NCBI GenBank assembly: GCA_027003075.1
Contig: JALWYV010000001.1
Span: 24,128 to 88,127, forward strand
Reading direction: 5' to 3'
DNA length: 64,000 nucleotides
Source of the DNA: a candidate division WOR-3 bacterium
Lineage (GTDB): Bacteria; Hydrothermota; Hydrothermia; LBFQ01
Shown: piece after piece, positions 42,564 through 52,865 of the stretch
Layout of the letters: every line of letters starts with the position of its first letter
How positions within the stretch are numbered: the stretch's first letter is position 1
Made by a program: the position numbers and the translations under genes
The notes under the pieces: generated by a model
Database searches by the model: none
The model's input: only the letters and a program-made list of their open reading frames with translations
Told to the model about the DNA's origin: nothing

Positions 42564-42908
42564 TTATAAGGAAGTTCGCGGCTTTTTTCGTGGCAGGTCA
42601 GAAGTATCTATACCGTACTTGCTCAGGTAGGCCCTTACGAGAAGTTTGAAGAACTTCGTATGTTTCCCGTCCATCAGCTTAAGATGAACCAGCTCGTGTA
42701 CTATCACCTCGTGGCGGAATCGGGCGGGTTGTTTGAGCAGCTCGCTGTTTAAGGTGAGCCTCCCCCTCGTTGAGACGCTCGCCCACTTGCGTTTCATCGG
42801 CCTTACGTGTATCTCCCTCAGCCTGTCCTCAACCCCTATTCTCCTCGCCCATGTCCAGACCTCGGCGATGAGAACATCCCGCATTACGTCATCCCTCATA
42901 TCTCTCAT
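42564..42908 (-). CDS. YgjP-like (DUF45/M48-family) zinc metallopeptidase, short form
   Basis: 'HEVIVHELVHL' is the HExxH motif. It overlaps the hsdR 3' end by 20 nt, a known hsdR-associated position. Confidence 0.65.
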   Translation of the reverse strand: MRDMRDDVMRDVLIAEVWTWARRIGVEDRLREIHVRPMKRKWASVSTRGRLTLNSELLKQPARFRHEVIVHELVHLKLMDGKHTKFFKLLVRAYLSKYGIDTSDLPRKKPRTSL

Positions 42909-45804
42909 CCTCTATCCTCCTAAGTAATCTGAGTATGTCGTTCGTCCACGGCACGACGTCCTTTATTCCGGCCCCAAGGAGGATTTTGTAAATCCTCTTC
43001 CTAAGTCTCCCCTCCTGTGTGGAGCTCCTGCCCCAATAAGGGAACTCCTTCAGGGCTTCGTCTATACCGGTGGCCAGTTTTTCGGAGGTTTCTGGATCCA
43101 TTTCCTTCTGCACGCGCATCCACCACTTTACGGCGAAGGCCTTGCCGGAGAGATGGGTTTCCTTCATCTGTCTCCGGGCCTCCTTTATTTCCCTTACGAG
43201 CCTTTCCAGTTCCTTCAGGGCCTGCCTGCTGTTTATCTGTCTCTCCTCAAAGGCTTTCCTTATCCTCTCCGCCCTCTCTCCTATGGGAATGAGGTAGGGT
43301 TCTTCCCTCCCTTCCTGTGCCACCAGCCGGGCTATGGTGTTCAGGAGGTTGAACATCCTTACGGTTTCGGGTGTGTGTCTTGCCGCAAGGAGGGTCTCAA
43401 GCGTTTCGGGGGTTATCTCGTAGGTTTCGTTCAAAAAGTTAAGCTTTGACGTGTGGGTGTTCCTCTGTACTATCTCAGCCGTTTTCCTGAGGAAGGATTT
43501 ACTGACGTCAACCTTCGGATCGTAGGCGTTTCTGAGTACCCTGTACATCTCCGCCAGTTTCCTGTAGTCCTCTATGAAAGGGCGCAGGAAAGGGTCCGGG
43601 GATATTACCTCGTAGAGTTCCTGAAGTTCGCGGAAGAACCTGTAAAACTCCTCCCTCTTATCCCTGTCCCGAAACCTCTCCAACAGGGCATCGGCCATCC
43701 TGTCGGCGCTCCCCACGTTGAGAAAACTCAGGTATTCCGTTTTTCCGGCCCGTATCAGCTCCGCGAAGCGCTCCTTCAGGACGTCAATCCCCTCCACGAC
43801 CCCCTTTATGTCCTCGGAGTCAAAGGTCAGCGCCCTCTCAAGGTTGTCAAATATGCCGACGAAGTCTATTATCAGGCCGTTGGTCTTCTTGCGGCCGCTT
43901 TCGTCCTCGTAAGGGCGGTTCACTCTGGCGATGGCCTGAAGGAGGACGTGGTCCCGCATGGGTTTGTCAAGGTACATGGCGTAGAGGATAGGGGCGTCGT
44001 AGCCGGTCAGGAGTTTTTCCGTGACGATGAGGATCTTAGGGTTTTCGTCGGGTTTCCTGAAGGCCTTCCTTATGCGGGTCTCCTCCTCGTCGTTCAGGTG
44101 GTAGCGCTTCAGATGGGGAGGGTCGTTGTGGCCCCGGCTTATCACGACCTCGCTGTATTCAGGGGGCAGGTACCTGTCCAGAGCCTCCTTGTAGAGGACA
44201 CACGCCTCCCTATCCACGGCCACAAGGAAGGCCTTGTACCCCATAGGTTCAACGTTGTTTTTGAAGTGATCGGCGACGAAACGGGCGATCTTATCCACCC
44301 TCTCGCTGTTCTTCAGCATGTTTTTGAGCCTGACAGCCCTATCCAATACCCGGTTTATCTCCTCAATGTCGGCCACCCCCTCAAGGGCAGCGGCCTCCCA
44401 GAACTCCTTTTCCATGGTCACCCTGTCAACTACGAGGTCGTTCGGTGCCATCTGGTAGTAGAGGGGAACGGTCGTCCCGTCCTCTATGGACTCCTTTATG
44501 GAGTACTTGTCAAGGTAACCCCTCGGAGGGTCGTCTGCTCCGAAGACCTTGAAGGTACCCTTCCCCTTGCTCGTCTTGTCTATCGGCGTGCCGGTGAATC
44601 CTATAAACGTGGCGTTGGGGAGCGCCCCCATAAGGTAGTTTCCGAGGTCCCCGCCCGTTGATCTGTGGGCCTCGTCTATCAGGACGATTATGTTGGAGCG
44701 GGTGTTTAGATTGGCGTCCGCTTTATCAAACTTATGGATCATGGAAACTATCAGGCCGCGGGTGTCACTCTTGAGGAGTTCCCGCAGGTGTCTTTTGCTC
44801 TTCGCAACGTGAAGGTTGCCGAAGCCCACGGCCTCAAGGTTCTGGAAGAGCTGTTGCTGGAGTTCGTTCCTGTCCACTATCATGAGGACGGTGGGGTTCT
44901 CAAATCTCGGGTCCTCCAGTATCAACCTCGCAATTGTTATCATGGTGTAGGTCTTACCGGAACCCTGCGTGTGCCATACGAGGCCGCGCCGTTTTATGGG
45001 GTCTCTTGCCCTGCCTATAACCTTCCTCACAGCCCGCATCTGGTGGGGTCTCAGAACGACTTTGGAGAGTTCCCCGTCTCTGCGTACGAACAGGATATAA
45101 TCTCTCAGGACCTTCAGGACCCTCTGCGGAGATATAAAGGTTTTTACGAGGGTCTCAAAGTCCCCGGCCTGCTCATCTTTGTAATTGAACAGCGCCTTTC
45201 TGGATAGGTTCCACGTGGGTCCGTAGAAGAACCGGACCCGGTTCGTCAGGGCATATATCTGGCTCTGAACCATGAGTTCGGGGCCCTCTTCGTGGTACCT
45301 GCGTATCTGGTCGTGGGCCTCCGGTATCCCCTCCATCTTCGTGGGTGATTTGGCCTCAAGGATTATTACGGGTATGCCGTTGATGAGGAAGACGACGTCA
45401 GGCCGTATTACGGCCGCACCACTGACAAAACGGAACTCCTCCGTAACGTGGAACGTGTTGTTGCGTGGATTTTTGAAGTCAACGAGACGGACGTTCTTCT
45501 CCCTTTTCTCCACCTCAACGAAAACGGTTTTAAGGCCCTTCAGGTACTCCCACGCCTCGTAATTCCCCTCTATGTTGAGCTTCACCCTTACGAGCCTGTC
45601 TATTACCTCTTCGGCCTTTGTCCTGTTCGTTATGGTAGTGGGGTTGAGTCTCTGAAGCTGCTCTATCAGGATGCTCCGCAGTACGGGGCTGCTCTCCCCT
45701 CCCCTCAGTCTCAGGGCCTCGTCCGGAGGAAGGTACTCCCAACCCACCTCTTGAGCGTGCTGTATTATCGGGTTCTGAACGGTGTGGCGTTCGGAGAACA
45801 TCAC
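42889..45804 (-). CDS. hsdR: type I restriction enzyme R subunit
   Basis: 971 aa with an N-terminal nuclease domain and SF2 helicase motifs ('WHTQGSGKTYTM', 'IVDRNELQQQ', 'DEAHRS'). Host-like GC content. Confidence 0.9.
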   Translation of the reverse strand: MMFSERHTVQNPIIQHAQEVGWEYLPPDEALRLRGGESSPVLRSILIEQLQRLNPTTITNRTKAEEVIDRLVRVKLNIEGNYEAWEYLKGLKTVFVEVEKREKNVRLVDFKNPRNNTFHVTEEFRFVSGAAVIRPDVVFLINGIPVIILEAKSPTKMEGIPEAHDQIRRYHEEGPELMVQSQIYALTNRVRFFYGPTWNLSRKALFNYKDEQAGDFETLVKTFISPQRVLKVLRDYILFVRRDGELSKVVLRPHQMRAVRKVIGRARDPIKRRGLVWHTQGSGKTYTMITIARLILEDPRFENPTVLMIVDRNELQQQLFQNLEAVGFGNLHVAKSKRHLRELLKSDTRGLIVSMIHKFDKADANLNTRSNIIVLIDEAHRSTGGDLGNYLMGALPNATFIGFTGTPIDKTSKGKGTFKVFGADDPPRGYLDKYSIKESIEDGTTVPLYYQMAPNDLVVDRVTMEKEFWEAAALEGVADIEEINRVLDRAVRLKNMLKNSERVDKIARFVADHFKNNVEPMGYKAFLVAVDREACVLYKEALDRYLPPEYSEVVISRGHNDPPHLKRYHLNDEEETRIRKAFRKPDENPKILIVTEKLLTGYDAPILYAMYLDKPMRDHVLLQAIARVNRPYEDESGRKKTNGLIIDFVGIFDNLERALTFDSEDIKGVVEGIDVLKERFAELIRAGKTEYLSFLNVGSADRMADALLERFRDRDKREEFYRFFRELQELYEVISPDPFLRPFIEDYRKLAEMYRVLRNAYDPKVDVSKSFLRKTAEIVQRNTHTSKLNFLNETYEITPETLETLLAARHTPETVRMFNLLNTIARLVAQEGREEPYLIPIGERAERIRKAFEERQINSRQALKELERLVREIKEARRQMKETHLSGKAFAVKWWMRVQKEMDPETSEKLATGIDEALKEFPYWGRSSTQEGRLRKRIYKILLGAGIKDVVPWTNDILRLLRRIEDERYEG

Positions 45805-46313
45805 AGGAAGATATTATATACGATTTGAGCGACCATAAATATTGCCGTAACCAAATACATACAGGCAAAAATTTTGGGAATTAGTGCCTCATAAGAGGTA
45901 AACGGCTTATAAATTTTGGGATGTTTCCCTTGTTTTAATATTTCCCATTCCGCGGTATATGGCTTCACTGGTAGATAATTTTCTAAAGCATGTATAACCT
46001 TAAATTTGCCGCTATTCATTCGTTTATATGAATTTATAAGATCCCCCCATAGCATTGCTATTGCGAATCCTACTAATGAAGCGGGGATTATGAAAAGTGC
46101 ATTTGATGTTTTAAAGGAATACATTATCACCCCGAGAATGGCTGAGTTGATAGTTATGAATAAATTATTCGTCTTATGCCGTCTTTCGCTTATATTGTCC
46201 GTCATTTTTACATAAAGTTTATAAATTTCTAATAGATGATCTTCATATTTATTACCATATCTCTCTTTTTCCAAACCCCTTATAAAATTCGAAAGTTCCA
46301 ACTCCTTATGCAT
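45801..46313 (-). CDS. small three-helix membrane protein (170 aa), candidate effector partner of the TIR protein
   Basis: Three hydrophobic helices (LFITINSAILGVIMYSF, LFIIPASLVGFAIAMLWGDLI and the C-terminal IFACMYLVTAIFMVAQIVYNIFL). It overlaps the TIR gene by 8 nt and hsdR by 4 nt, and is AT-rich. Confidence 0.5.
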   Translation of the reverse strand: MHKELELSNFIRGLEKERYGNKYEDHLLEIYKLYVKMTDNISERRHKTNNLFITINSAILGVIMYSFKTSNALFIIPASLVGFAIAMLWGDLINSYKRMNSGKFKVIHALENYLPVKPYTAEWEILKQGKHPKIYKPFTSYEALIPKIFACMYLVTAIFMVAQIVYNIFL

Positions 46314-46725
46314 TTGCCCATTTTCGTATTGCTCTAACTATAGATTCTGTATTCCATCCAACAATCTCATTAGCGTTTTCCCTTACTTTTCTGGATATTT
46401 TAATCTGACCTCTTGGAACTATTGCAATAATTGGTTTAGGAATTGCAAATTCTTTCTTCGCTATTAATATTTCCTTCTGTATCCATTTACTGTATGTTGC
46501 ATATACTCCAGCCAAAACTAAAACCACATGGCATGATTTCATCTGGTTCTTTATGGCTTCATAAAGTTCTCTATCACTACCGGAGGTATGAATAGGATCA
46601 TCTGGGGGAACAGAATAATCCTTAAATTTAAAATATTTACGCTTTTGTAGGAGATTTATTAATCTCCTATAATGATCCTCATATGTCCATGAATGGCTGA
46701 TAAACAGGTTATACGTCTTTACCAT
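46306..46725 (-). CDS. TIR-like domain protein (DUF1863, Thoeris ThsB-like)
   Basis: 'YNLFISHSWTYED...' matches the ThsB 'VFFSFHYQD' start. '...SKWIQKEILIAKKEFAIPKPIIAI' matches ThsB 'RRWVRYEIMKSIEKGNKIIGI'. 139 aa and AT-rich. Confidence 0.65.
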   Translation of the reverse strand: MVKTYNLFISHSWTYEDHYRRLINLLQKRKYFKFKDYSVPPDDPIHTSGSDRELYEAIKNQMKSCHVVLVLAGVYATYSKWIQKEILIAKKEFAIPKPIIAIVPRGQIKISRKVRENANEIVGWNTESIVRAIRKWANA

Positions 46726-46748
46726 TTTTTGCCTCCTTTAGGTAGATA

Positions 46749-47528
46749 TTATAAGCCCGGATGAACGTCAAGTGGGCAGCTCTCAACCCTCCACCTGAAT
46801 ATTTCATGCTGGACCTCCACAGCCGAACGGTTATCCTTTATGACACCCGCCCACTCCCACGAGAATTCAGCTCTCTTATCCCCTTCAACGAACTTCAAAA
46901 ATCTTCTAAAGGCGATAAAATAATGCTGTACAAGTGATTTGAAAGTATCCTTCGCCTCCATCAAAACGTTCTCTTTTATGCTGATTTTATTTTCCATCCA
47001 GAACATAAAAACGAAGAGTAAAACCTCAACCTTAAGGGACAGATTTATAGAGTCTTTTAGACTCTCCGCTATCTCCGGTCTGTAGATCAAGATAATCGCC
47101 CAAACGGGATGTGAAAACATGGAACGCATAAAATCCGGGTACGTTATACTTTTGAAGTCAAAACTTTTGAATTCTTCAGGTGATTCGTTCAAGACCGTAC
47201 GGATTAGTTTGGATGAGGATTTAACGATCGGTACCAGATAGTTTTCAACATAGGGGAACATATCTATAAGCTGCGGATGGTCTTTGAACCCCTCACCAAT
47301 CCGTTCTATTCCCTCAACTATATCCACTCCCTCCCATTCTTCTGCAAGTTTAGAAAGGACAAGGAACCTTATCTGAAGCAAGGTCGTTAATATTTCCTTA
47401 TCCTCCAACATCTCTGACACATCTTCGTGGCTCTCAACCAGCTCCCTGAACCTCTCAATCAACTCCCTCCCCTTCTCGTCTTCCATCTCCTCAATCATCC
47501 CCGGCGCCAAAATCTCCAACATAGGCAC
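46749..47528 (-). CDS. hypothetical protein (259 aa) inside the defense island
   Basis: ORF with AT-rich codon usage like its neighbours. Contains an 'RELVESH' (R-x5-H) motif of uncertain meaning. Confidence 0.45.
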   Translation of the reverse strand: MPMLEILAPGMIEEMEDEKGRELIERFRELVESHEDVSEMLEDKEILTTLLQIRFLVLSKLAEEWEGVDIVEGIERIGEGFKDHPQLIDMFPYVENYLVPIVKSSSKLIRTVLNESPEEFKSFDFKSITYPDFMRSMFSHPVWAIILIYRPEIAESLKDSINLSLKVEVLLFVFMFWMENKISIKENVLMEAKDTFKSLVQHYFIAFRRFLKFVEGDKRAEFSWEWAGVIKDNRSAVEVQHEIFRWRVESCPLDVHPGL

Positions 47529-47530
47529 GT

Positions 47531-48877
47531 TTATTTTACAGCCGAACCGTCCCCCTCAAACTGCTTGACGAACTCCTTTGGCAGACGCCTTCGGGCCGTT
47601 AAGAGGTCGTGGAGGAGGGTTTTAAAGAGCGTATCTAACGCTTCCACCTTCTTCCTCTCAGCCTCTATTTTGTCATCCACGGCCTTCAGAATTTCGGCTA
47701 TGTGTTTCTGCTCGTGGAGAGGAGGGAGGGGGATGGGGAGAGAAATTAAAAGTGACTTTGGAAGTCTTTGCCGTCCCGTCGTTCCTTCCATCTTACTCGA
47801 TAGATTTTGGCGAACTTTTGGATACTTCAGATAATATGCTAGATAAAACAAATTCAAAGAGCTTTTTTCGTCTGTCCATATTGGAAAAACTTCTGTCGTA
47901 GCGTAACCCCATTCTCCGGGAATACTCTTAACTATTCCCTGTTTTCCGTTCTCAAAACTCGGTGTTATTCGTGCTACCAGTAAATCCCCTTCTTTTACCA
48001 AAACCCCACTTTTAACGTCCTCCCTGCGTCTCATCTCCCACCGCTCTATAAACATAAATTCATCAGGGATAAGACTCATAGGAATGAATGGAATACTATC
48101 CCCACTTAACTTTACCCCTTTGTGTCCGATCTTTACCACCTCCCCCAACCGCACCACCTCCCAATGTTCCGGGATCTTTCCGACTTCCGTTTCCTTCAAC
48201 TTCACCTTATCAACCTCGTCAAGAGGCACGGGGCCGTAGGTGAATAGGTGCCTCATCAAAGACTTCTTGAGTTCCTTGAGAGCCTTTATAACGTTTTCGG
48301 TCTTCTCCTTCGCCTCCTGCACAGCCCTTAAGACGTAGGCGATGGCCCTCTGCTCCGGTAGAGGGGGGAGGGGGAAAAGAACTTTCAGAAAATCTTGGGG
48401 CTTTAGATTTTTTCTCCTGTGGACGACGTTGGAAGCAAAACGCATGTACTGGGAAATCATAAAAGGTTGTTTAACTAACCAGTTAAGAAAATCTAGATCT
48501 ACATCCTTGCGAACTATATCCCACACGTGATAAGCCGGACTCACTGCTCCGATGGGATAATTAGAAACCGCAAGAACACCTTCATTGATGGGAAATCCAT
48601 ATACAAGTTACCCCTTTAACACCACTTTATAATTACTTATATCGCGTCCTGCCACCCTTTTTTTAAATTTTTTAAACTGGGGTATCAATCCGTCGTATCT
48701 AGTAATGGAGAGTATAATACCCTTAAAACTTTGCTCTAAATCCTTTACACGTAGTGAGCTTTTCCTAAACAAATCAGCCCCTTTGACCACCTCCCACTCC
48801 TCCGGCAAAGGCCCTAACTCTGTCATTCTGTGGCCGGGAGGGAAATTGTTAGATTTAATCATTTTTGTTCTGTTCAT
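47531..48877 (-). pseudogene. hsdS: type I restriction specificity subunit HsdS interrupted by one in-frame TAA
   Basis: The 89-aa ORF (48608-48877, 'LPEEWEVVKGADL') and the 337-aa ORF (47531-48544) share one reading frame. They are separated only by a TAA at 48608-48610 and 21 sense codons. Together they make about 448 aa with two target-recognition domains. Confidence 0.6.
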
Positions 48878-50519
48878 GTTGTGTTCCTGTTTTAACTAAA
48901 TGTTTTATCTTGTCAATCATATTTTTTATGTATGTCCATCCCTCGTGATCCCGGTCCGGATCCAATCTCCGTACCGCTTCTCTTGCTATAAATGGTTTAC
49001 CTGTAGATCCTTCATCTTTTGCTTTCTTTTCTAATTCTCTATAATTCGGGAAATATTGCCTCATAGCATTTTCAAAATTTTTCCCAAATATAGTAAACTT
49101 ATCCTCTACAATCCAGTCATTGGCTGATATCAAATCGCCAATTTCATTTTCGTCGTTTATTCCTACTGAACGCAAAACATCTTTACGTTTTATTCCTTGC
49201 TTGTCATCTGTTATATCGTTGTCAAAAATAATATATGTAGGTATACCGTAAGAAGTAAAAAATCTATACCATTTAGCAAGATTTCCCTTGCCGCCTACAC
49301 TTATTATAGCAATACCTTCTTTTTCCAATTGAAAGTACTGCTTTTCAAAAAGTTCTGGCAATGCAAATACTTCAGTAGGCCCTTCTACAAGTATTATAGC
49401 ACGTGCGAAAAAACCTGAAAGAATTTCAGGGGATGCATGAACACTGTAATACGGGATTACCGTGTCTTCATTAACCTTATCGGAAGGAGCCCCTAATTTT
49501 ATAAGACTGTTGGACAGATCTTTGCGGGTTAACTGTCGGGTCCTTGTAGCACCGTTCTCCTTATATACAAGGACTAATCCTTCCAAGTTTTCTATTGATA
49601 GAAATTCAGGGCTATGGGTTGTTATGAGTATTTGGAGTCCCTCCTGAGCTCTGCTGCGGAGCTTTTTGGCAAGCCATTTTTGTGCAAGCGGATGCAAATG
49701 GGCTTCAGGTTCTTCAATAATTAGCAGTATTCCACCGTGAAAGGCTTTTGCATAAGAGTATGCAAGTGTTAGAGCCAAAATTTGTTGTTCACCAGTCCCC
49801 ATCTCTTCCAGAGAAACAACAGTCTCCCCTTCTATGGCTTGTAGTTTTAATGCATGAAAGTAATTTGCTGGATTATAAGCTTCAAAATCCACTTCAAGAC
49901 GATGCTGCATTCCATCAATCATATCATTAAACTCTGTTTGTAAATCATCAACAAATTGTTTGAATGGGGATATCTTGAGAAATTCTTCTTTAATTTGTTC
50001 GAATAATCCATTAAGGTTATTTACTACCTCATTGTGTTCTTTTAAATGTTTATGGAACCTTCTCATAATTCTACTAAGCAATGTCCATTTAGAAGAATAG
50101 CTCAGGTGATAAGAGAGGTTTCTTTCTGCTTCAACCACAACTGCAATGCAGTCTTCTCTATCTTCATTTCTAATATATCTTGCTTCTCCGTGACTGATTC
50201 CTTTATAATACACCGGAATATCTTCTAATGGATTGTATCGCCATATGATAGCTTCAAACTTCCCTGCAAGAGGAGGATCAAATTTTGCGCTAATTTCAAT
50301 CGTATTACTCCTATCTCTACCGAAAAATTCAAAATCTTCAGGGTCGTAATTACCTGGCCAGACAGGCCCCAGAAGTAACCGTATCGCTTTGACTATATTA
50401 GATTTTCCGGCATTATTTTCTCCTATTAATACTACATGACCTGTTTCAGGAAAAACTATTTTCACAGGATCCTTAATAGAACGGTATCCCGAAATTCTTA
50501 TTTCCCTAATCCTACCCAT
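48855..50519 (-). CDS. OLD-family ATP-dependent endonuclease (ABC-type ATPase plus C-terminal TOPRIM), single-gene class 1-like
   Basis: Walker A 'GENNAGKSN', Walker B '[13 protein letters not shown]', H-loop '[10 protein letters not shown]'. The C-terminal TOPRIM has 'ILVEGPTE' and 'IFDNDITDD'. AT-rich. Overlaps hsdS by 23 nt. Confidence 0.8.
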
Positions 50520-50793
50520 TCTCCCCCTCCATCCTAACCCCCAGTACCCTCAACACCTCCCACAACCTCCTGTCCGCCTCCCTCCTCTCGTCCTCCACGA
50601 TCTGCAGGGCCACATCCCGGCTCCCGTACTCCATCGCCAGGGCCTTTATCTCGTCCTCAAAGACGTCCGAAAGGCGCTTGAGGAAAATGAGTGGCAGTAT
50701 GTAGTCCTTGAACTTCGGGGCGTCAATCGGCCCCCTTATCACCGAGGCGGCTTCCCACAACCAGTTTTCAAGCGTCTTTATGCTCAACGCCAT
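50512..50793 (-). pseudogene. hsdM: HsdM N-terminal domain remnant (93 aa); the methyltransferase domain is absent
   Basis: '[41 protein letters not shown]' is the HsdM_N signature. The ORF ends in a divergent tail whose TAG overlaps the OLD ATG (ATGGGTAG). accD follows immediately, so no catalytic domain can be present. Confidence 0.55.
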
Positions 50794-50829: not shown

Positions 50830-51678
50830 TCACCTTATGCCCGCAGTCATCATATCAAGGAGGCGGGCTATGGTACGCTTCATCTCCCTCCTGTCCACCA
50901 CCAGGTCCACCTGCCCATGCTCCAGCTGGAACTCGCTCCTCTGGAATCCGGGAGGGAGGTCCTGCCCTATGGTCTGCTTTATCACCCTCGGCCCGGCAAA
51001 ACCAATAAGGGCGTTCGGTTCTGCTATTATCACGTCCCCTAACGCCGCAAAGCTGGCCATAACACCGCCCATGGTCGGGTCCCCGAGGACGGTTATGTAC
51101 GGAACCCCTCTCTCCTCCAGTTGTATGACCCCCACGGTGGTCTTCACCATCTGCATTAACGAAAATATCCCCTCGTGCATCCTCGCCCCGCCCCCGGAGA
51201 AGAGGACGGCTATGAGAGGTACGCGTTTACGTCGGGACTCCCTTGCCGCTCTGTAGAACTTCTCCCCGAAGACCGACCCCATTGACCCCCCAAGGAAGGC
51301 GAAGTCCGTGAAGAACCCCACCACCTTCCTACCGAATATGTGTCCTATCCCGGCCACGCTGCTGTCTTTGAGGCCGTACAGCCTCTCGTACTTGCGCATC
51401 TTATCCTTGTATCCGGGGAAGTTCAGGGGGTCCGCGGAGACGAGGTTCGCCCCGATCTCCTTCTCTATGCCCTCGTCAAAGAGGAGGTTGGCGTACTCGT
51501 ACGCCCCTATACGGAAGTGATAGCCGCACTTCGGACACACCTTGGCGTTGGCCGTCAGGTCCGGGTTCGGGAGGATGCTCCCGCAGGAGGGACACTTTAC
51601 CCAGAAGTCGTCCGGTATGCTTATCCGGGACTTCTTTTTCGGGGGTGGTACCTTCTTCTTTTTCCTGCGGAAGAACAT
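50830..51678 (-). CDS. accD: acetyl-CoA carboxylase carboxyltransferase subunit beta
   Basis: Zinc ribbon 'CPSCGSILPNPDLTANAKVCPKCGYHFR' and a carboxyltransferase domain. The start at 51678 overlaps the upstream gene's stop (ATGA). The track ORF is over-extended. Confidence 0.9.
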   Translation of the reverse strand: MFFRRKKKKVPPPKKKSRISIPDDFWVKCPSCGSILPNPDLTANAKVCPKCGYHFRIGAYEYANLLFDEGIEKEIGANLVSADPLNFPGYKDKMRKYERLYGLKDSSVAGIGHIFGRKVVGFFTDFAFLGGSMGSVFGEKFYRAARESRRKRVPLIAVLFSGGGARMHEGIFSLMQMVKTTVGVIQLEERGVPYITVLGDPTMGGVMASFAALGDVIIAEPNALIGFAGPRVIKQTIGQDLPPGFQRSEFQLEHGQVDLVVDRREMKRTIARLLDMMTAGIR

Positions 51679-52865
51679 CAGGCCACCTCCACGCCCTCGT
51701 ACACGATCTTCTTCCAGAGCGTACCTACCTCCCTGACCCTGTCGGCCACGTACTCCTTTATGTCCTGAAGCTCCGTATCCGTCACCCCACCCCACACCCT
51801 CGTATGGACGAGCTGGGGTTCGTTGATGGGCCTCCCGATCTGGGAGACGAGGTAGATGTAAACGTTCTCAACGGCCGGGAACCTCTCCACCACCTCCCTC
51901 GCTATCATGTTGGCGGCTACGTTGTATATCTTCCCCACGTGGGAGACGGGGTTTTTGCCGGCCGCGGCCTCAAGGGTCATGGGTCTGTAGGGGGTTATGA
52001 GGCCGTTCACACGGTTCCCCCTTCCCACCTGACCGTCGTCCCCCGCCTCAGCGCTGGTGCCGGTTACGGTTATGTAAACCGACCCCCTCCCGTAGTCGTC
52101 GGCCACGTTGATCTCAACCGACAGGGGGTAATCCCCAAGTATCTCCTTGGCGCGTACGTACACGTCGTTCTGGACCCTCGTCTTCAGTTCCCTGTAGTGT
52201 TTGACGTCCTTCACGTACCTGTCAACGAAGGCGAGGGCCACGGTGATCCGGTAGGTCTTGAGGTCCCTCACCACCATCACCTTTATGTCCTCTCCCACGA
52301 AGGGGTTGTCAGATTTGTACTGGGGTGAATTAAGGAAACGTTCCACCTCGTAGGCCAGCTTTTCGGCCTTCGTCAAAGGGTAGAAGCCAACGCCGAAGGA
52401 CGTGTCGTTGGCAAGGGGAACCCCACCCTCCCTCTCAAAGAGGTCGGTGAGGTCCTCGCTTCCGGCCCGCGCCTTCAGGTATAGGTTGATGTGCCGGTCA
52501 ACGTCAAGGTGGGGGAGGTTCCTGCGGAGCCACTCCTTCGTCGTCTCGTAGTAGATCTCCTCTATCTCCTTACGGAACTCCTCCCCCCTGTACCGGTAGG
52601 TTGCTCTCCCCACGAGGGTGAACTCTATAGGTTCCTTTATCTCCCCTCCTCCGAATCTGGGTGAGGCCTCCCCGCCAACGAGGATGGCCTTGTCAAGGTT
52701 GTGATGCAGTATCTTCCCGAACCTGCCGATGTAAAAACGGGAAAGGGCCCTGCTGTACTCCTCCGCGAGGCTGTCGCATATGGTGTCAGGGTGTCCCGTA
52801 CCCTTACGCTCCACTATCTCAAAGTCTCCCATGAAGGGTGCCGTCTCCAGATCTATCCTGACCAT
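51678..52865 (-). CDS. mat: S-adenosylmethionine synthetase, archaeal-type (MAT)
   Basis: 395 aa with 'ERKGTGHPDTICDSLAEE' near the N-terminus, the archaeal AdoMet synthetase signature. It is not the bacterial MetK pattern. Confidence 0.8.
   Translation of the reverse strand: MVRIDLETAPFMGDFEIVERKGTGHPDTICDSLAEEYSRALSRFYIGRFGKILHHNLDKAILVGGEASPRFGGGEIKEPIEFTLVGRATYRYRGEEFRKEIEEIYYETTKEWLRRNLPHLDVDRHINLYLKARAGSEDLTDLFEREGGVPLANDTSFGVGFYPLTKAEKLAYEVERFLNSPQYKSDNPFVGEDIKVMVVRDLKTYRITVALAFVDRYVKDVKHYRELKTRVQNDVYVRAKEILGDYPLSVEINVADDYGRGSVYITVTGTSAEAGDDGQVGRGNRVNGLITPYRPMTLEAAAGKNPVSHVGKIYNVAANMIAREVVERFPAVENVYIYLVSQIGRPINEPQLVHTRVWGGVTDTELQDIKEYVADRVREVGTLWKKIVYEGVEVA

What the first reader, a model, noticed from the sequence alone, without database searches (positions are those of the whole stretch)
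48855..50793. OLD-family nuclease whose ATG is embedded in the stop of a truncated HsdM N-terminal domain ORF
The sequence shows GAG-AAT-GGG-TAG (end of the stub) containing ATG-GGT-AGG (start of OLD), an 8-nt overlap. The GC-rich to AT-rich transition falls exactly here, at about 50519.

The HsdM stub keeps the conserved 'LWEAA...RG..D...[15 protein letters not shown]' core but ends in a non-homologous tail. Either a recombination event replaced the methyltransferase domain with an OLD cassette, or the stub is kept on purpose as a small ORF that gives translational coupling and a promoter for the nuclease.
Basis: seen in the sequence. Interest (0 to 1): 0.7.

Follow-up and report, generated by a model that had tools for sequence, protein, structure and literature searches.

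The report
Decayed restriction operon carrying OLD nuclease
A type I restriction-modification operon in a candidate-division WOR-3 bacterium has lost its methylase through an in-frame internal deletion and its specificity gene through a stop codon, leaving a 93-codon hsdM remnant whose native stop still overlaps the start of an intact OLD-family defence nuclease; this is ordinary defence-island decay, not a new system.

Summary
The sequence facts hold. A 93-aa HsdM_N ORF (50512-50793, minus strand) overlaps a 554-aa OLD ATPase-Toprim gene (48855-50519) by 8 nt (ATGGGTAG), and GC drops from 0.58 to 0.37 at that point.

The "non-homologous tail" claim is wrong. Stub residues 72-93 are the genuine, conserved HsdM C-terminus. 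The stub is hsdM with about 435 internal codons deleted in frame, across a codon-phased purine-rich repeat (EDERRE / EEERAE). The stop/ATG overlap is therefore the native hsdM 3' junction.

OLD did not replace the methyltransferase domain. It occupies a recurrent cargo slot between hsdM and hsdS. Relatives with full-length hsdM have hsdM-cargo-OLD-hsdS (L114, L116), and other relatives carry a short pAgo, Schlafen, Mrr-TPR or deaminase genes in that slot.

hsdS is also dead, through a single in-frame TAA. hsdR is intact. So the R-M system is disabled, while OLD keeps all catalytic motifs, as does a second cargo block (unknown protein + ThsB-like TIR + 8xMP membrane protein).

Embedding of defence genes in type I R-M operons is already described. 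The only mildly new points are an R-M-linked OLD clade and recurrent in-frame "mini-HsdM" remnants. Interest is low to moderate.

The parts
50512..50793 (-). mini-hsdM ORF (93 codons). It is hsdM with an in-frame internal deletion of about 435 codons.
   Evidence: Pfam HsdM_N 53.5 bits. It aligns in two blocks to the L015 HsdM, aa 1-71 and aa 507-529. The sequence is identical in L001 and L002.
50581..50793 (-). Retained hsdM 5' part (codons 1-71), about half of the HsdM N-terminal domain.
   Evidence: 57/71 identical to L015 HsdM residues 1-71. The HsdM N-terminal domain is about 150 aa in M.EcoKI (PMC2647291).
50512..50580 (-). Retained hsdM 3' part (codons 72-93 plus TAG), the native C-terminal helix and stop.
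   Evidence: 15/22 identical to L015 HsdM 507-529. C-terminal profile score 28.0 bits against a shuffle maximum of 11.4. tblastn E=4e-4.
50566..50596 (-). Deletion junction inside a purine-rich imperfect repeat (GAGGACGAGAGGAGG | GAGGCGGACAGGAGG; E-D-E-R-R-E | A-D-R-R).
   Evidence: Repeat family D3. In L015 the two parental sites read GAA GAT GAG AGG AGA GAG and GAA GAA GAG CGC GCC GAG, in the same codon phase.
50512..50530 (-). Native hsdM-stop/next-gene-start junction: an SD-like GGAGGGGGAG (50521-50530), the OLD ATG (50517-50519) and the hsdM TAG (50512-50514), giving an 8-nt overlap.
   Evidence: Read directly. In L015 the downstream gene's ATG lies in the same AAT-GGn codons. Overlaps are the family norm.
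48855..50519 (-). OLD-family nuclease (554 aa), an ABC ATPase plus Toprim domain that is class-1-like, intact and low in GC (0.37).
   Evidence: Pfam and PADLOC matches. Best solved relative is TsOLD 6P74, E=6e-31. All clade-invariant catalytic residues are present. GC.
48855..48877 (-). OLD 3' end overlapping the hsdS start (23 nt).
   Evidence: A 26-nt overlap of the same kind occurs in L114 and L116.
47531..48877 (-). hsdS pseudogene: one 448-codon frame interrupted by a single TAA at 48608-48610 (codon 90).
   Evidence: In-frame translation, and the same TAA in L001. Homologues have Gln or Asp at that position and the alignment runs across the stop without gaps. Pfam Methylase_S and PADLOC Specificity_I matches.
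45801..47528 (-). Second cargo block between hsdS and hsdR: an unknown 259-aa protein (46749-47528), a ThsB-like TIR (46306-46725) and an 8xMP membrane protein (45801-46313). GC is 0.33-0.44.
   Evidence: Pfam and PADLOC matches. The block is replaced by other cargo in L003, L004 and L015.
42889..45804 (-). hsdR, intact (971 aa).
   Evidence: Full set of Pfam domains and PADLOC REase_I at E=3e-110. dN/dS is 0.079 against L003 and 0.134 against L004.

Best explanation
This is a type I R-M operon of the order hsdM-[slot 1]-hsdS-[slot 2]-hsdR, in a candidate division WOR-3 bacterium. It carries embedded defence cargo in both slots and has since lost its own R-M function.

Shown:
1. The 93-codon ORF is hsdM with codons ~72-506 deleted in frame, between two short codon-phased purine-rich repeats. 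The start of the gene and its last 22 codons survive, including the native stop and the ribosome-binding sequence of the next gene.
2. hsdS carries one nonsense codon. With neither M nor S, the system can neither methylate nor restrict, although hsdR is intact.
3. OLD occupies slot 1, a position where relatives with full-length hsdM also carry OLD or other defence genes. Everything from the hsdM stop to the hsdR start is low-GC relative to the flanks.
4. OLD retains all ATPase and Toprim catalytic residues.

Inferred:
- The central low-GC block was imported by recombination within the conserved hsdM and hsdR flanks.
- The deletion arose by slippage or illegitimate recombination between the repeats.
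- OLD is expressed from the hsdM 5' signals (or by read-through from accD), using its own SD inside the hsdM tail, possibly helped by termination-reinitiation at the ATGGGTAG overlap.
- OLD acts autonomously as an ATP-regulated, two-metal Toprim DNA nuclease that nicks or degrades DNA on phage infection, like class 1 OLD enzymes. Ancestrally it would have been a second line of defence behind the R-M system.
- Because OLD survives intact while M and S are dead, it probably does not need the R-M complex to be kept silent.
For: Deletion:
- Two-block alignment of the stub to the L015 HsdM.
- Conserved C-terminal motif in about 30 HsdMs, and the profile test.
- The junction lies in a repeat.
- No MTase domain anywhere in the window.
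- Identical sequence in three assemblies.

hsdS stop.

Slot 1:
- 11-13 of 37 related loci have extra genes between hsdM and hsdS.
- These include Piwi, Mrr_cat-TPR, Schlafen/AlbA_2, deaminase and HEPN genes.
- L114 and L116 show full-length hsdM - one cargo gene - OLD (58-60% identical) - hsdS, with the same OLD/hsdS overlap.
- L107 shows hsdM - Schlafen - OLD.

OLD-R-M linkage: 14 of about 17 informative metagenome loci have type I, type III or BREX genes directly upstream of the OLD relative.

OLD integrity: with the catalytic residues as defined for TsOLD in PMC7049728.

GC block.

Precedent: embedded defence genes in type I R-M operons are described in bioRxiv 10.1101/2024.01.29.577857 and PMC11411939.
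Against: - No expression data exist. The promoter and terminator scans were no better than shuffled sequence, so the transcription unit is assumed.
- No intact accD-hsdM-OLD-hsdS locus was found within WOR-3. L003 is too short, and L004 lacks hsdM and sits elsewhere. The ancestral state is therefore inferred from other phyla.
- hsdR shows strong purifying selection (dN/dS 0.08). That fits a very recent inactivation, but it could also mean HsdR still works with M and S subunits encoded elsewhere in the genome, which I could not search.
- OLD's trigger and substrate are unknown.
Confidence: 0.8

Rival explanations
1. One reading: a recombination event replaced the hsdM methyltransferase domain with an incoming OLD cassette, so the stub's end is the insertion breakpoint.
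For: The GC step coincides with the stub/OLD boundary. OLD is foreign in composition.
Against: - The stub's last 22 codons and its stop are genuine hsdM 3' sequence. The breakpoint of the MTase loss is therefore at codon 71/72 (about 50580), 60 nt upstream of OLD and inside GC-rich hsdM sequence.
- Full-length hsdM coexists with OLD in the same slot in L114 and L116.
- The GC boundary is simply the hsdM/cargo gene boundary.
Confidence: 0.07
2. The mini-HsdM ORF is maintained by selection. Either it is an expression platform (promoter, start and termination-reinitiation coupling) for OLD, or it is a small protein with a function of its own, for example an HsdS-binding or HsdR-binding decoy or an OLD regulator.
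For: - The remnant keeps just the 5' start and the 3' SD plus overlap.
- In-frame N+C mini-HsdMs recur independently (P0002, P0003, P0029, P0053).
- One of them (L112) also overlaps the start of unrelated cargo, a STAND-like NTPase.
- The HsdM C-terminal region is the part that contacts the HsdS coiled coil (PMC2647291).
Against: - Frame preservation is automatic for a deletion between codon-phased repeats.
- Only 5 of 120 hits have this form, with no out-of-frame denominator for comparison.
- The stub keeps only about 71 of 150 N-terminal-domain residues and about 22 of 60 C-terminal residues, so a stable fold is doubtful.
- hsdS, the would-be partner, is itself a pseudogene.
- OLD has its own strong SD, and in L114, L116 and L107 it is not adjacent to hsdM at all.
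- No sequence variation is available to test for selection on the stub.
Confidence: 0.2
3. Assembly or binning artefact: the short hsdM results from a collapsed repeat or a chimeric join in a metagenome assembly.
For: The source is a MAG, and the junction lies in a short repeat.
Against: - The repeat is about 15 nt and only about 80% identical, too short to collapse.
- Three assemblies from different pipelines (the window, an ENA scaffold and a Logan unitig assembly) are identical across the junction.
- The frame, the tail and the downstream junction are all coherent.
Confidence: 0.03

Closest known systems
Defence genes genetically embedded within type I R-M (and BREX, DISARM, Hma) operons: Payne et al. 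2024 (bioRxiv 10.1101/2024.01.29.577857), TgvAB in V. cholerae VPI-2 (PMC11411939), PrrC in EcoprrI
   Same: Same-strand defence genes are inserted between the subunit genes of a type I system. The cargo varies between close relatives. ABC-ATPase/TOPRIM proteins are among the known embedded cargo (HEC-01, HEC-04).
   Different: Here the host R-M system is itself inactivated (hsdM internal deletion, hsdS nonsense) while the cargo stays intact. The cargo is a bona fide OLD (class-1-like) with a conserved overlap onto hsdS. I did not find this particular OLD clade or slot named in the papers I read.
Class 1 OLD nucleases (Thermus scotoductus OLD, PDB 6P74; P2 Old; V. cholerae class 1 OLD, PMC12392090)
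   Same: [quoted passage not shown] Walker A Lys, EEPE Walker B, His D-loop and H-loop, and the metal A and metal B acidic residues are conserved. There is no helicase, reverse transcriptase or split AriA/AriB partner.
   Different: Class 1 is described as single genes not proximal to other defence genes (PMC10568477). This clade is habitually the neighbour, often the translationally overlapping neighbour, of methyltransferase-containing defence operons. No biochemistry is available.
PARIS (AriA/AriB, class 4 OLD) and Gabija (GajA/GajB, class 2 OLD)
   Same: ABC ATPase plus Toprim chemistry. Conceptually these are back-up systems triggered by anti-restriction proteins such as Ocr, which would make sense of the linkage to R-M operons.
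   Different: PARIS is two proteins and Gabija needs a UvrD-like helicase, and neither partner is present here. A trigger by anti-restriction proteins is speculation for this OLD.
Ordinary R-M pseudogenisation (orphaned or decayed hsd genes)
   Same: hsdM is lost by deletion and hsdS by a point nonsense mutation. Loss of M before or with R is the safe order of inactivation.
   Different: The deletion is cleanly in frame and retains both gene ends and the downstream coupling signals. The same N+C remnant form recurs elsewhere.

Membership tests
HsdM (type I R-M methyltransferase subunit) | HsdM N-terminal domain | tested here: met
   Pfam HsdM_N at 53.5 bits against a 24.5-bit cut-off, covering profile positions 1-59 of 135 only. 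57/71 identical to L015 HsdM.
HsdM (type I R-M methyltransferase subunit) | N6_Mtase catalytic domain (AdoMet binding, NPPW/F motif) | tested here: not met
   Absent from the ORF and from all six frames of the window. The corresponding L015 residues 72-506 are deleted.
HsdM (type I R-M methyltransferase subunit) | C-terminal helix that contacts the HsdS coiled coil | tested here: met
   Only the last 22 residues are retained. Profile score is 28.0 bits against a shuffle maximum of 11.4. The role of this region is taken from PMC2647291.
Functional type I R-M system | Intact hsdM, hsdS and hsdR | tested here: not met
   hsdM has an internal deletion. hsdS has an in-frame TAA. hsdR is intact. A trans-acting M or S elsewhere in the genome could not be checked.
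OLD family nuclease | N-terminal ABC ATPase with Walker A Lys, Walker B acidic residues, and D-loop and H-loop His | tested here: met
   GENNAGK39S, EEPEAH274LH276P and TTH302SP are invariant across 12 clade members. The protein aligns to TsOLD residues 3-435 at E=6e-31. AAA_15 and AAA_21 match.
OLD family nuclease | C-terminal Toprim with metal A (E, DxD) and metal B ligands | tested here: met
   E379, E383, D433-N-D435, E483 and R487 are invariant or nearly invariant. They align with TsOLD E377, D381, D431 and D433. Pfam OLD-like_TOPRIM is at 82.5 bits. The residues downstream of 437 are assigned by clade conservation, not by structural superposition.
OLD class 1 (as opposed to classes 2, 3 and 4) | No adjacent UvrD-like helicase, no retron RT/ncRNA, not split into AriA/AriB; size about 50 aa shorter than class 2 | tested here: met
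   The neighbours are the hsdM remnant and hsdS. The protein is 554 aa, and the best PDB hit is the class 1 TsOLD. I did not search for a retron ncRNA.
OLD class 1 (as opposed to classes 2, 3 and 4) | Stand-alone gene not proximal to other defence genes (as described in PMC10568477) | tested here: not met
   It is embedded in a type I R-M operon next to TIR/8xMP cargo. Its relatives lie next to type I, type III, BREX or MmeI-like systems in most loci.
Embedded defence gene (guilt-by-embedding sense, Payne et al. 2024) | Gene flanked on both sides, on the same strand, by components of one multi-gene defence system, with variable content between relatives | tested here: met
   The order is hsdM remnant - OLD - hsdS - cargo - hsdR, all on the minus strand. 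Slot content varies among relatives.
Nuclease activity / anti-phage function of this OLD | Demonstrated DNA cleavage and phage protection | not testable with these tools
   Needs biochemistry and plaque assays.

The most novel reading that the evidence does not exclude
This OLD clade may be a dedicated companion of methyltransferase-based defence systems (type I, type III, BREX, MmeI-like). It would be co-expressed with them through overlapping reading frames and would act as a guard that fires when phage anti-restriction proteins disable the host system.

In addition, in-frame 'mini-HsdM' remnants (N-terminus plus C-terminal helix) may be selectively retained leader ORFs that keep such cargo expressed after the R-M system itself decays.
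Probability: 0.15. Interest if true: 0.55.

Novelty: new member of a known kind. Interest (0 to 1): 0.3.

Why it matters
The result corrects the annotation. The short ORF is neither a truncated gene with a random tail nor the scar of a cassette insertion. It is a cleanly deleted hsdM whose two ends survive.

The locus is a tidy example of two known themes: defence genes nested inside type I R-M operons, and the nested cargo outliving its host system.

Two points might interest specialists.
- A class-1-like OLD lineage is habitually attached to methyltransferase-based defence operons. This contradicts the textbook description of class 1 OLDs as isolated genes and hints at a back-up role.
- In-frame hsdM remnants that keep the downstream translational junction recur in unrelated metagenomes.

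Neither point is surprising enough to change thinking without experiments.

Tried and rejected
- **Stub homologue search.** It returned only short HsdM_N proteins. I first wondered whether stand-alone stubs form a family. Most have random, frameshift-like tails or sit at contig ends, so this is mostly a ranking artefact plus ordinary pseudogenes. Only 5 of 120 are N+C fusions.
- **Intact ancestral locus in WOR-3.** The single genome-contig scan, with HsdR as query, found L003 (same species, but the contig starts inside hsdS) and L004 (84% HsdR, with no hsdM within 10 kb upstream and a different chromosomal context). No accD-hsdM(full)-OLD locus was found.
- **Promoter and terminator scan around accD, the stub and OLD.** Hit counts were no higher than in shuffled sequence. 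A TATAAT lies 15 nt upstream of the stub ATG, but no -35 element was called. I make no promoter claim.
- **Repeat search for att-like or cassette-bounding repeats around OLD.** Nothing convincing turned up apart from the junction repeat D3.
- **Programmed frameshift fusing the stub to OLD.** There is no slippery heptamer at GGGGGAGAATGGG (read). Rejected.
- **Literature search for '8xMP'.** Nothing relevant was found.
- **Structure prediction of the stub.** I considered it and did not run it. The stub retains only fragments of two domains, and a model would not decide between the explanations.
Full report
**1. What is there**

All genes below lie on the minus strand, in this order:

| Gene | Coordinates | Notes |
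|---|---|---|
| accD | 50830-51795 | |
| HsdM_N ORF | 50512-50793 | 93 aa |
| OLD-family protein | 48855-50519 | 554 aa |
| hsdS | 47531-48877 | split into 89-aa and 337-aa ORFs |
| unknown protein | 46749-47528 | 259 aa |
| ThsB-like TIR protein | 46306-46725 | |
| 8xMP membrane protein | 45801-46313 | |
| hsdR | 42889-45804 | 971 aa |
| YgjP-like gene | 42564-42908 | |

- The stub ends GAG AAT GGG TAG and OLD starts at the ATG inside it, an 8-nt overlap.
- GC is 0.58 in accD and the stub, 0.37 in OLD, 0.45 in hsdS, 0.33-0.44 in the next three genes and 0.54 in hsdR.
Its partner boundary is the start of hsdR: the whole middle of the operon is low-GC.
- The same DNA occurs in an ENA metagenome scaffold (L001: 18 mismatches in 21,665 nt) and in a Logan assembly (L002: identical).
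- The organism is a candidate division WOR-3 bacterium. L003 has HsdR 99% identical and 96.7% DNA identity over 7 kb.

**2. The stub is an internally deleted hsdM, not a truncation with a foreign tail**

- The closest full-length relative found is L015, a Thermotogota MAG with HsdR 74% identical and a 530-aa HsdM.
- L015 HsdM begins ...[10 protein letters not shown]|GIISKG... and ends ...EAEEERAE|ADRKLREVLGVLGIRIGGRKNGI*.
- The stub reads ...[10 protein letters not shown]|[21 protein letters not shown].
- Stub residues 1-71 align to HsdM 1-71 (57/71 identical). Stub residues 72-93 align to HsdM 507-529 (15/22 identical).
- tblastn of the full-length protein against the window gives exactly these two hits and nothing else.
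- The C-terminal motif EAEEER.EAD..L..vL..LG is shared by about 30 HsdMs of this family.
- A profile built from 34 of those C-termini scores the stub's tail at 28.0 bits, against a maximum of 11.4 in 2000 shuffles. It finds only this site in a six-frame scan of the window.
- The two parental sites are short purine-rich repeats in the same codon phase: GAR GAN GAG MGN NNN GAG, encoding E-D-E-R-R-E and E-E-E-R-A-E. The junction lies in repeat D3 at 50566-50596.
- A deletion between such repeats is automatically in frame.
- About 435 codons are gone, comprising the rest of the N-terminal domain, the whole N6_Mtase domain and most of the C-terminal region.
- No frameshift correction could restore hsdM, because no methyltransferase sequence remains in any frame.

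**3. The stop/ATG overlap is the native hsdM 3' junction**

- In 26 of 37 related loci where hsdM and hsdS are both visible, the next gene starts within -17 to +8 nt of the hsdM stop. An 8-nt overlap occurs in L016, L018, L019, L025 and L041.
- Caveat: ORF starts in this survey are the first possible start codon, so some may be over-extended.
- In L015 the downstream gene's ATG lies in the same AAT-GGn (Asn-Gly) codons as in the window.
- OLD's SD-like GGAGGGGGAG (50521-50530) is encoded by the MEGE codons of the hsdM tail.
- OLD's N-terminus aligns from this ATG with 11 homologues, so the start is right.

**4. OLD sits in a recurrent cargo slot and did not replace the MTase domain**

Among loci related through HsdR:
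- 11-13 of 37 have extra genes between hsdM and hsdS.
- 26 of 55 have more than 300 nt between hsdS and hsdR.
- Slot-1 cargo includes a short pAgo set (L015, Piwi), Mrr_cat-TPR (L041), Schlafen/AlbA_2 (L056), a deaminase (L069) and a HEPN protein (L046).
- Slot-2 cargo includes fused DarT-Macro (L004, L015), DUF3800 (L004) and PIN (L003).

The closest OLD homologues (55-61% identical) show the intact form of the window's arrangement:
- L114: hsdM (521 aa, HsdM_N + N6_Mtase) - PD-(D/E)XK/NucS-like gene - OLD - hsdS.
- L116: hsdM (543 aa) - Schlafen - OLD - hsdS - AAA_15 ATPase.
- In both, the OLD 3' end overlaps the hsdS start by 26 nt, compared with 23 nt in the window. OLD is also lower in GC than hsdM.
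- L107 (Thermoflexus) has hsdM (split 107 + 417 aa) - Schlafen - OLD.

More distant OLD relatives (40-46% identical) follow R-M-type genes in 14 of about 17 loci with enough upstream sequence:
- type I hsdR-hsdM-hsdS, or fused M-S genes;
- type III mod-res (L084, L093);
- BREX (L092).

Others follow a SNF2 helicase plus an MmeI-like enzyme (L109-111, L115). L117 (Thermus), L086, L099 and L100 are not R-M-linked.

No long repeats bound OLD in the window. Exchange by homologous recombination in the flanking conserved hsd sequences is therefore the most economical inference.

**5. State of the R-M system**

- hsdS is one 448-codon frame with a single TAA at 48608-48610, present also in L001.
- Homologues have Gln or Asp at that position, and the alignment runs across the stop without gaps. 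This points to a recent point mutation, most simply CAA to TAA.
- All 18 differences between the window and L001 lie in a 320-nt patch of hsdS (47860-48179). That is a recombination tract, not scattered decay.
- hsdR has all its domains. Its dN/dS is 0.079 against L003 and 0.134 against L004.
- Restriction needs R2M2S1, and methylation needs M and S (established knowledge, restated in PMC11411939). As encoded here, the system can do neither.
- The clean lesions and the constrained hsdR suggest recent inactivation. Alternatively M and S are supplied from elsewhere, which I could not test.

**6. OLD itself**

- The best solved relative is the class 1 Thermus scotoductus OLD (6P74, E=6e-31, aligned over residues 5-437).
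- The following are invariant or nearly so across the clade and present in the window's protein: Walker A K39, the GTGxQQ signature, EEPE-A-H274-L-H276-P, H302, Toprim E379/E383, D433-N-D435, E483 and R487.
- They correspond to the TsOLD catalytic residues K34, E276, H283, H310, E377, D381, D431 and D433 described in PMC7049728.
- There is no helicase, reverse transcriptase or split partner next to it.
- By sequence it is class-1-like. By context it departs from the description of class 1 as isolated genes (PMC10568477).

**7. Mechanism (inferred)**

- OLD is probably expressed from hsdM's 5' signals, or by read-through from accD (36-nt gap, no terminator called). It would use the SD in the hsdM tail, and termination-reinitiation at ATGGGTAG is possible.
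- It most likely acts on its own as an ATP-regulated two-metal Toprim nuclease in phage defence.
- Its habitual attachment to methyltransferase-based systems suggests a back-up role. This is analogous to PrrC with EcoprrI, or to PARIS and Gabija being triggered by Ocr, but that is analogy only.
- Its intactness in a background without M and S argues that it does not need the R-M complex to stay silent.

**8. Is the stub kept on purpose?**

Points for:
- The remnant keeps exactly the parts needed to express the downstream gene.
- Four other hits (P0002, P0003, P0029, P0053) are independent in-frame N+C mini-HsdMs.
- One of them (L112) overlaps the start of a STAND-like NTPase.

Points against:
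- The in-frame outcome is automatic for codon-phased repeats.
- There is no denominator of out-of-frame deletions.
- The stub keeps only about 71 of 150 and about 22 of 60 residues of the two terminal domains (PMC2647291).
- Its would-be partner hsdS is dead.
- OLD has its own SD.

I give this reading about 0.2.

**9. Novelty**

Embedding of defence genes in type I R-M, BREX and DISARM operons is already described, including ABC-ATPase/TOPRIM proteins (10.1101/2024.01.29.577857; PMC11411939). OLD nucleases and R-M pseudogenisation are well known.

This locus is a new member of a known kind. The R-M-linked OLD lineage and the recurrent mini-HsdM remnants are modest additions.

Noticed in passing
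window 48608-48610 (hsdS, 47531-48877, minus strand): hsdS is not frameshifted. It is interrupted by a single in-frame TAA at codon 90 of 448. Homologues have Gln or Asp there, and the same stop is present in the independent assembly L001.
   Followed up: yes
window 47860-48179 (inside hsdS): All 18 mismatches between the window and the ENA scaffold L001 (21,665 nt aligned) fall in this 320-nt patch. It looks like a gene-conversion or recombination tract, possibly from another hsdS allele or copy in the population.
   Followed up: partly
window 45801-47528: Second embedded cargo block between hsdS and hsdR: an unknown 259-aa protein with no family hit, a ThsB-like TIR protein and an 8xMP (octameric membrane protein) family member. 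GC is 0.33-0.44. It could be a Thoeris-like TIR plus membrane-effector system. No literature on 8xMP was found.
   Followed up: partly
window 47443-47528; L003 141-448; L004 9041-9109: The first ~28 codons of the 259-aa protein are conserved at the left edge of slot 2, even where the rest of the slot is replaced: 93% DNA identity in L003, and a 23-aa remnant in L004. In L003 (HsdR 99% identical) the slot holds a 40%-identical homologue plus a PIN protein instead of TIR + 8xMP. This stretch may be a recombination anchor.
   Followed up: partly
P0002, P0003, P0029, P0053 (L112 9001-9387): These are independent in-frame 'mini-HsdM' proteins that join the HsdM N-terminus to the conserved C-terminal helix. 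P0003 has two internal deletions. In L112 the remnant overlaps by 4 nt the start of a 46-aa ORF, followed by a 1684-aa STAND-like NTPase.
   Followed up: partly
L015 1781-4221: A short pAgo set (244 aa + 433-aa Piwi protein + 128 aa) occupies the hsdM-hsdS slot of the closest full-length relative. A similar 241-aa + Piwi pair follows OLD in L109-L111.
   Followed up: partly
L004 1-13000: A related WOR-3 MAG (HsdR 84% identical) has intact hsdS and hsdR but no hsdM within 10 kb upstream. PIN-like and MNT/HEPN-like genes precede hsdS, and a fused DarT-Macro plus a DUF3800 gene lie between hsdS and hsdR. The operon sits in a different chromosomal context from the window.
   Followed up: partly
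L107 6025-7601: In Thermoflexus sp. the hsdM upstream of Schlafen-OLD is split into 107-aa and 417-aa ORFs that overlap by 1 nt. This is a frameshift, present in both an NCBI and a Logan assembly.
   Followed up: no
window 42564-42908: A YgjP-like/SprT-like metallopeptidase fragment (114 aa, matching only the C-terminal half of the profile) overlaps the end of hsdR. Homologous short ORFs follow hsdR in L004 and L015.
   Followed up: no
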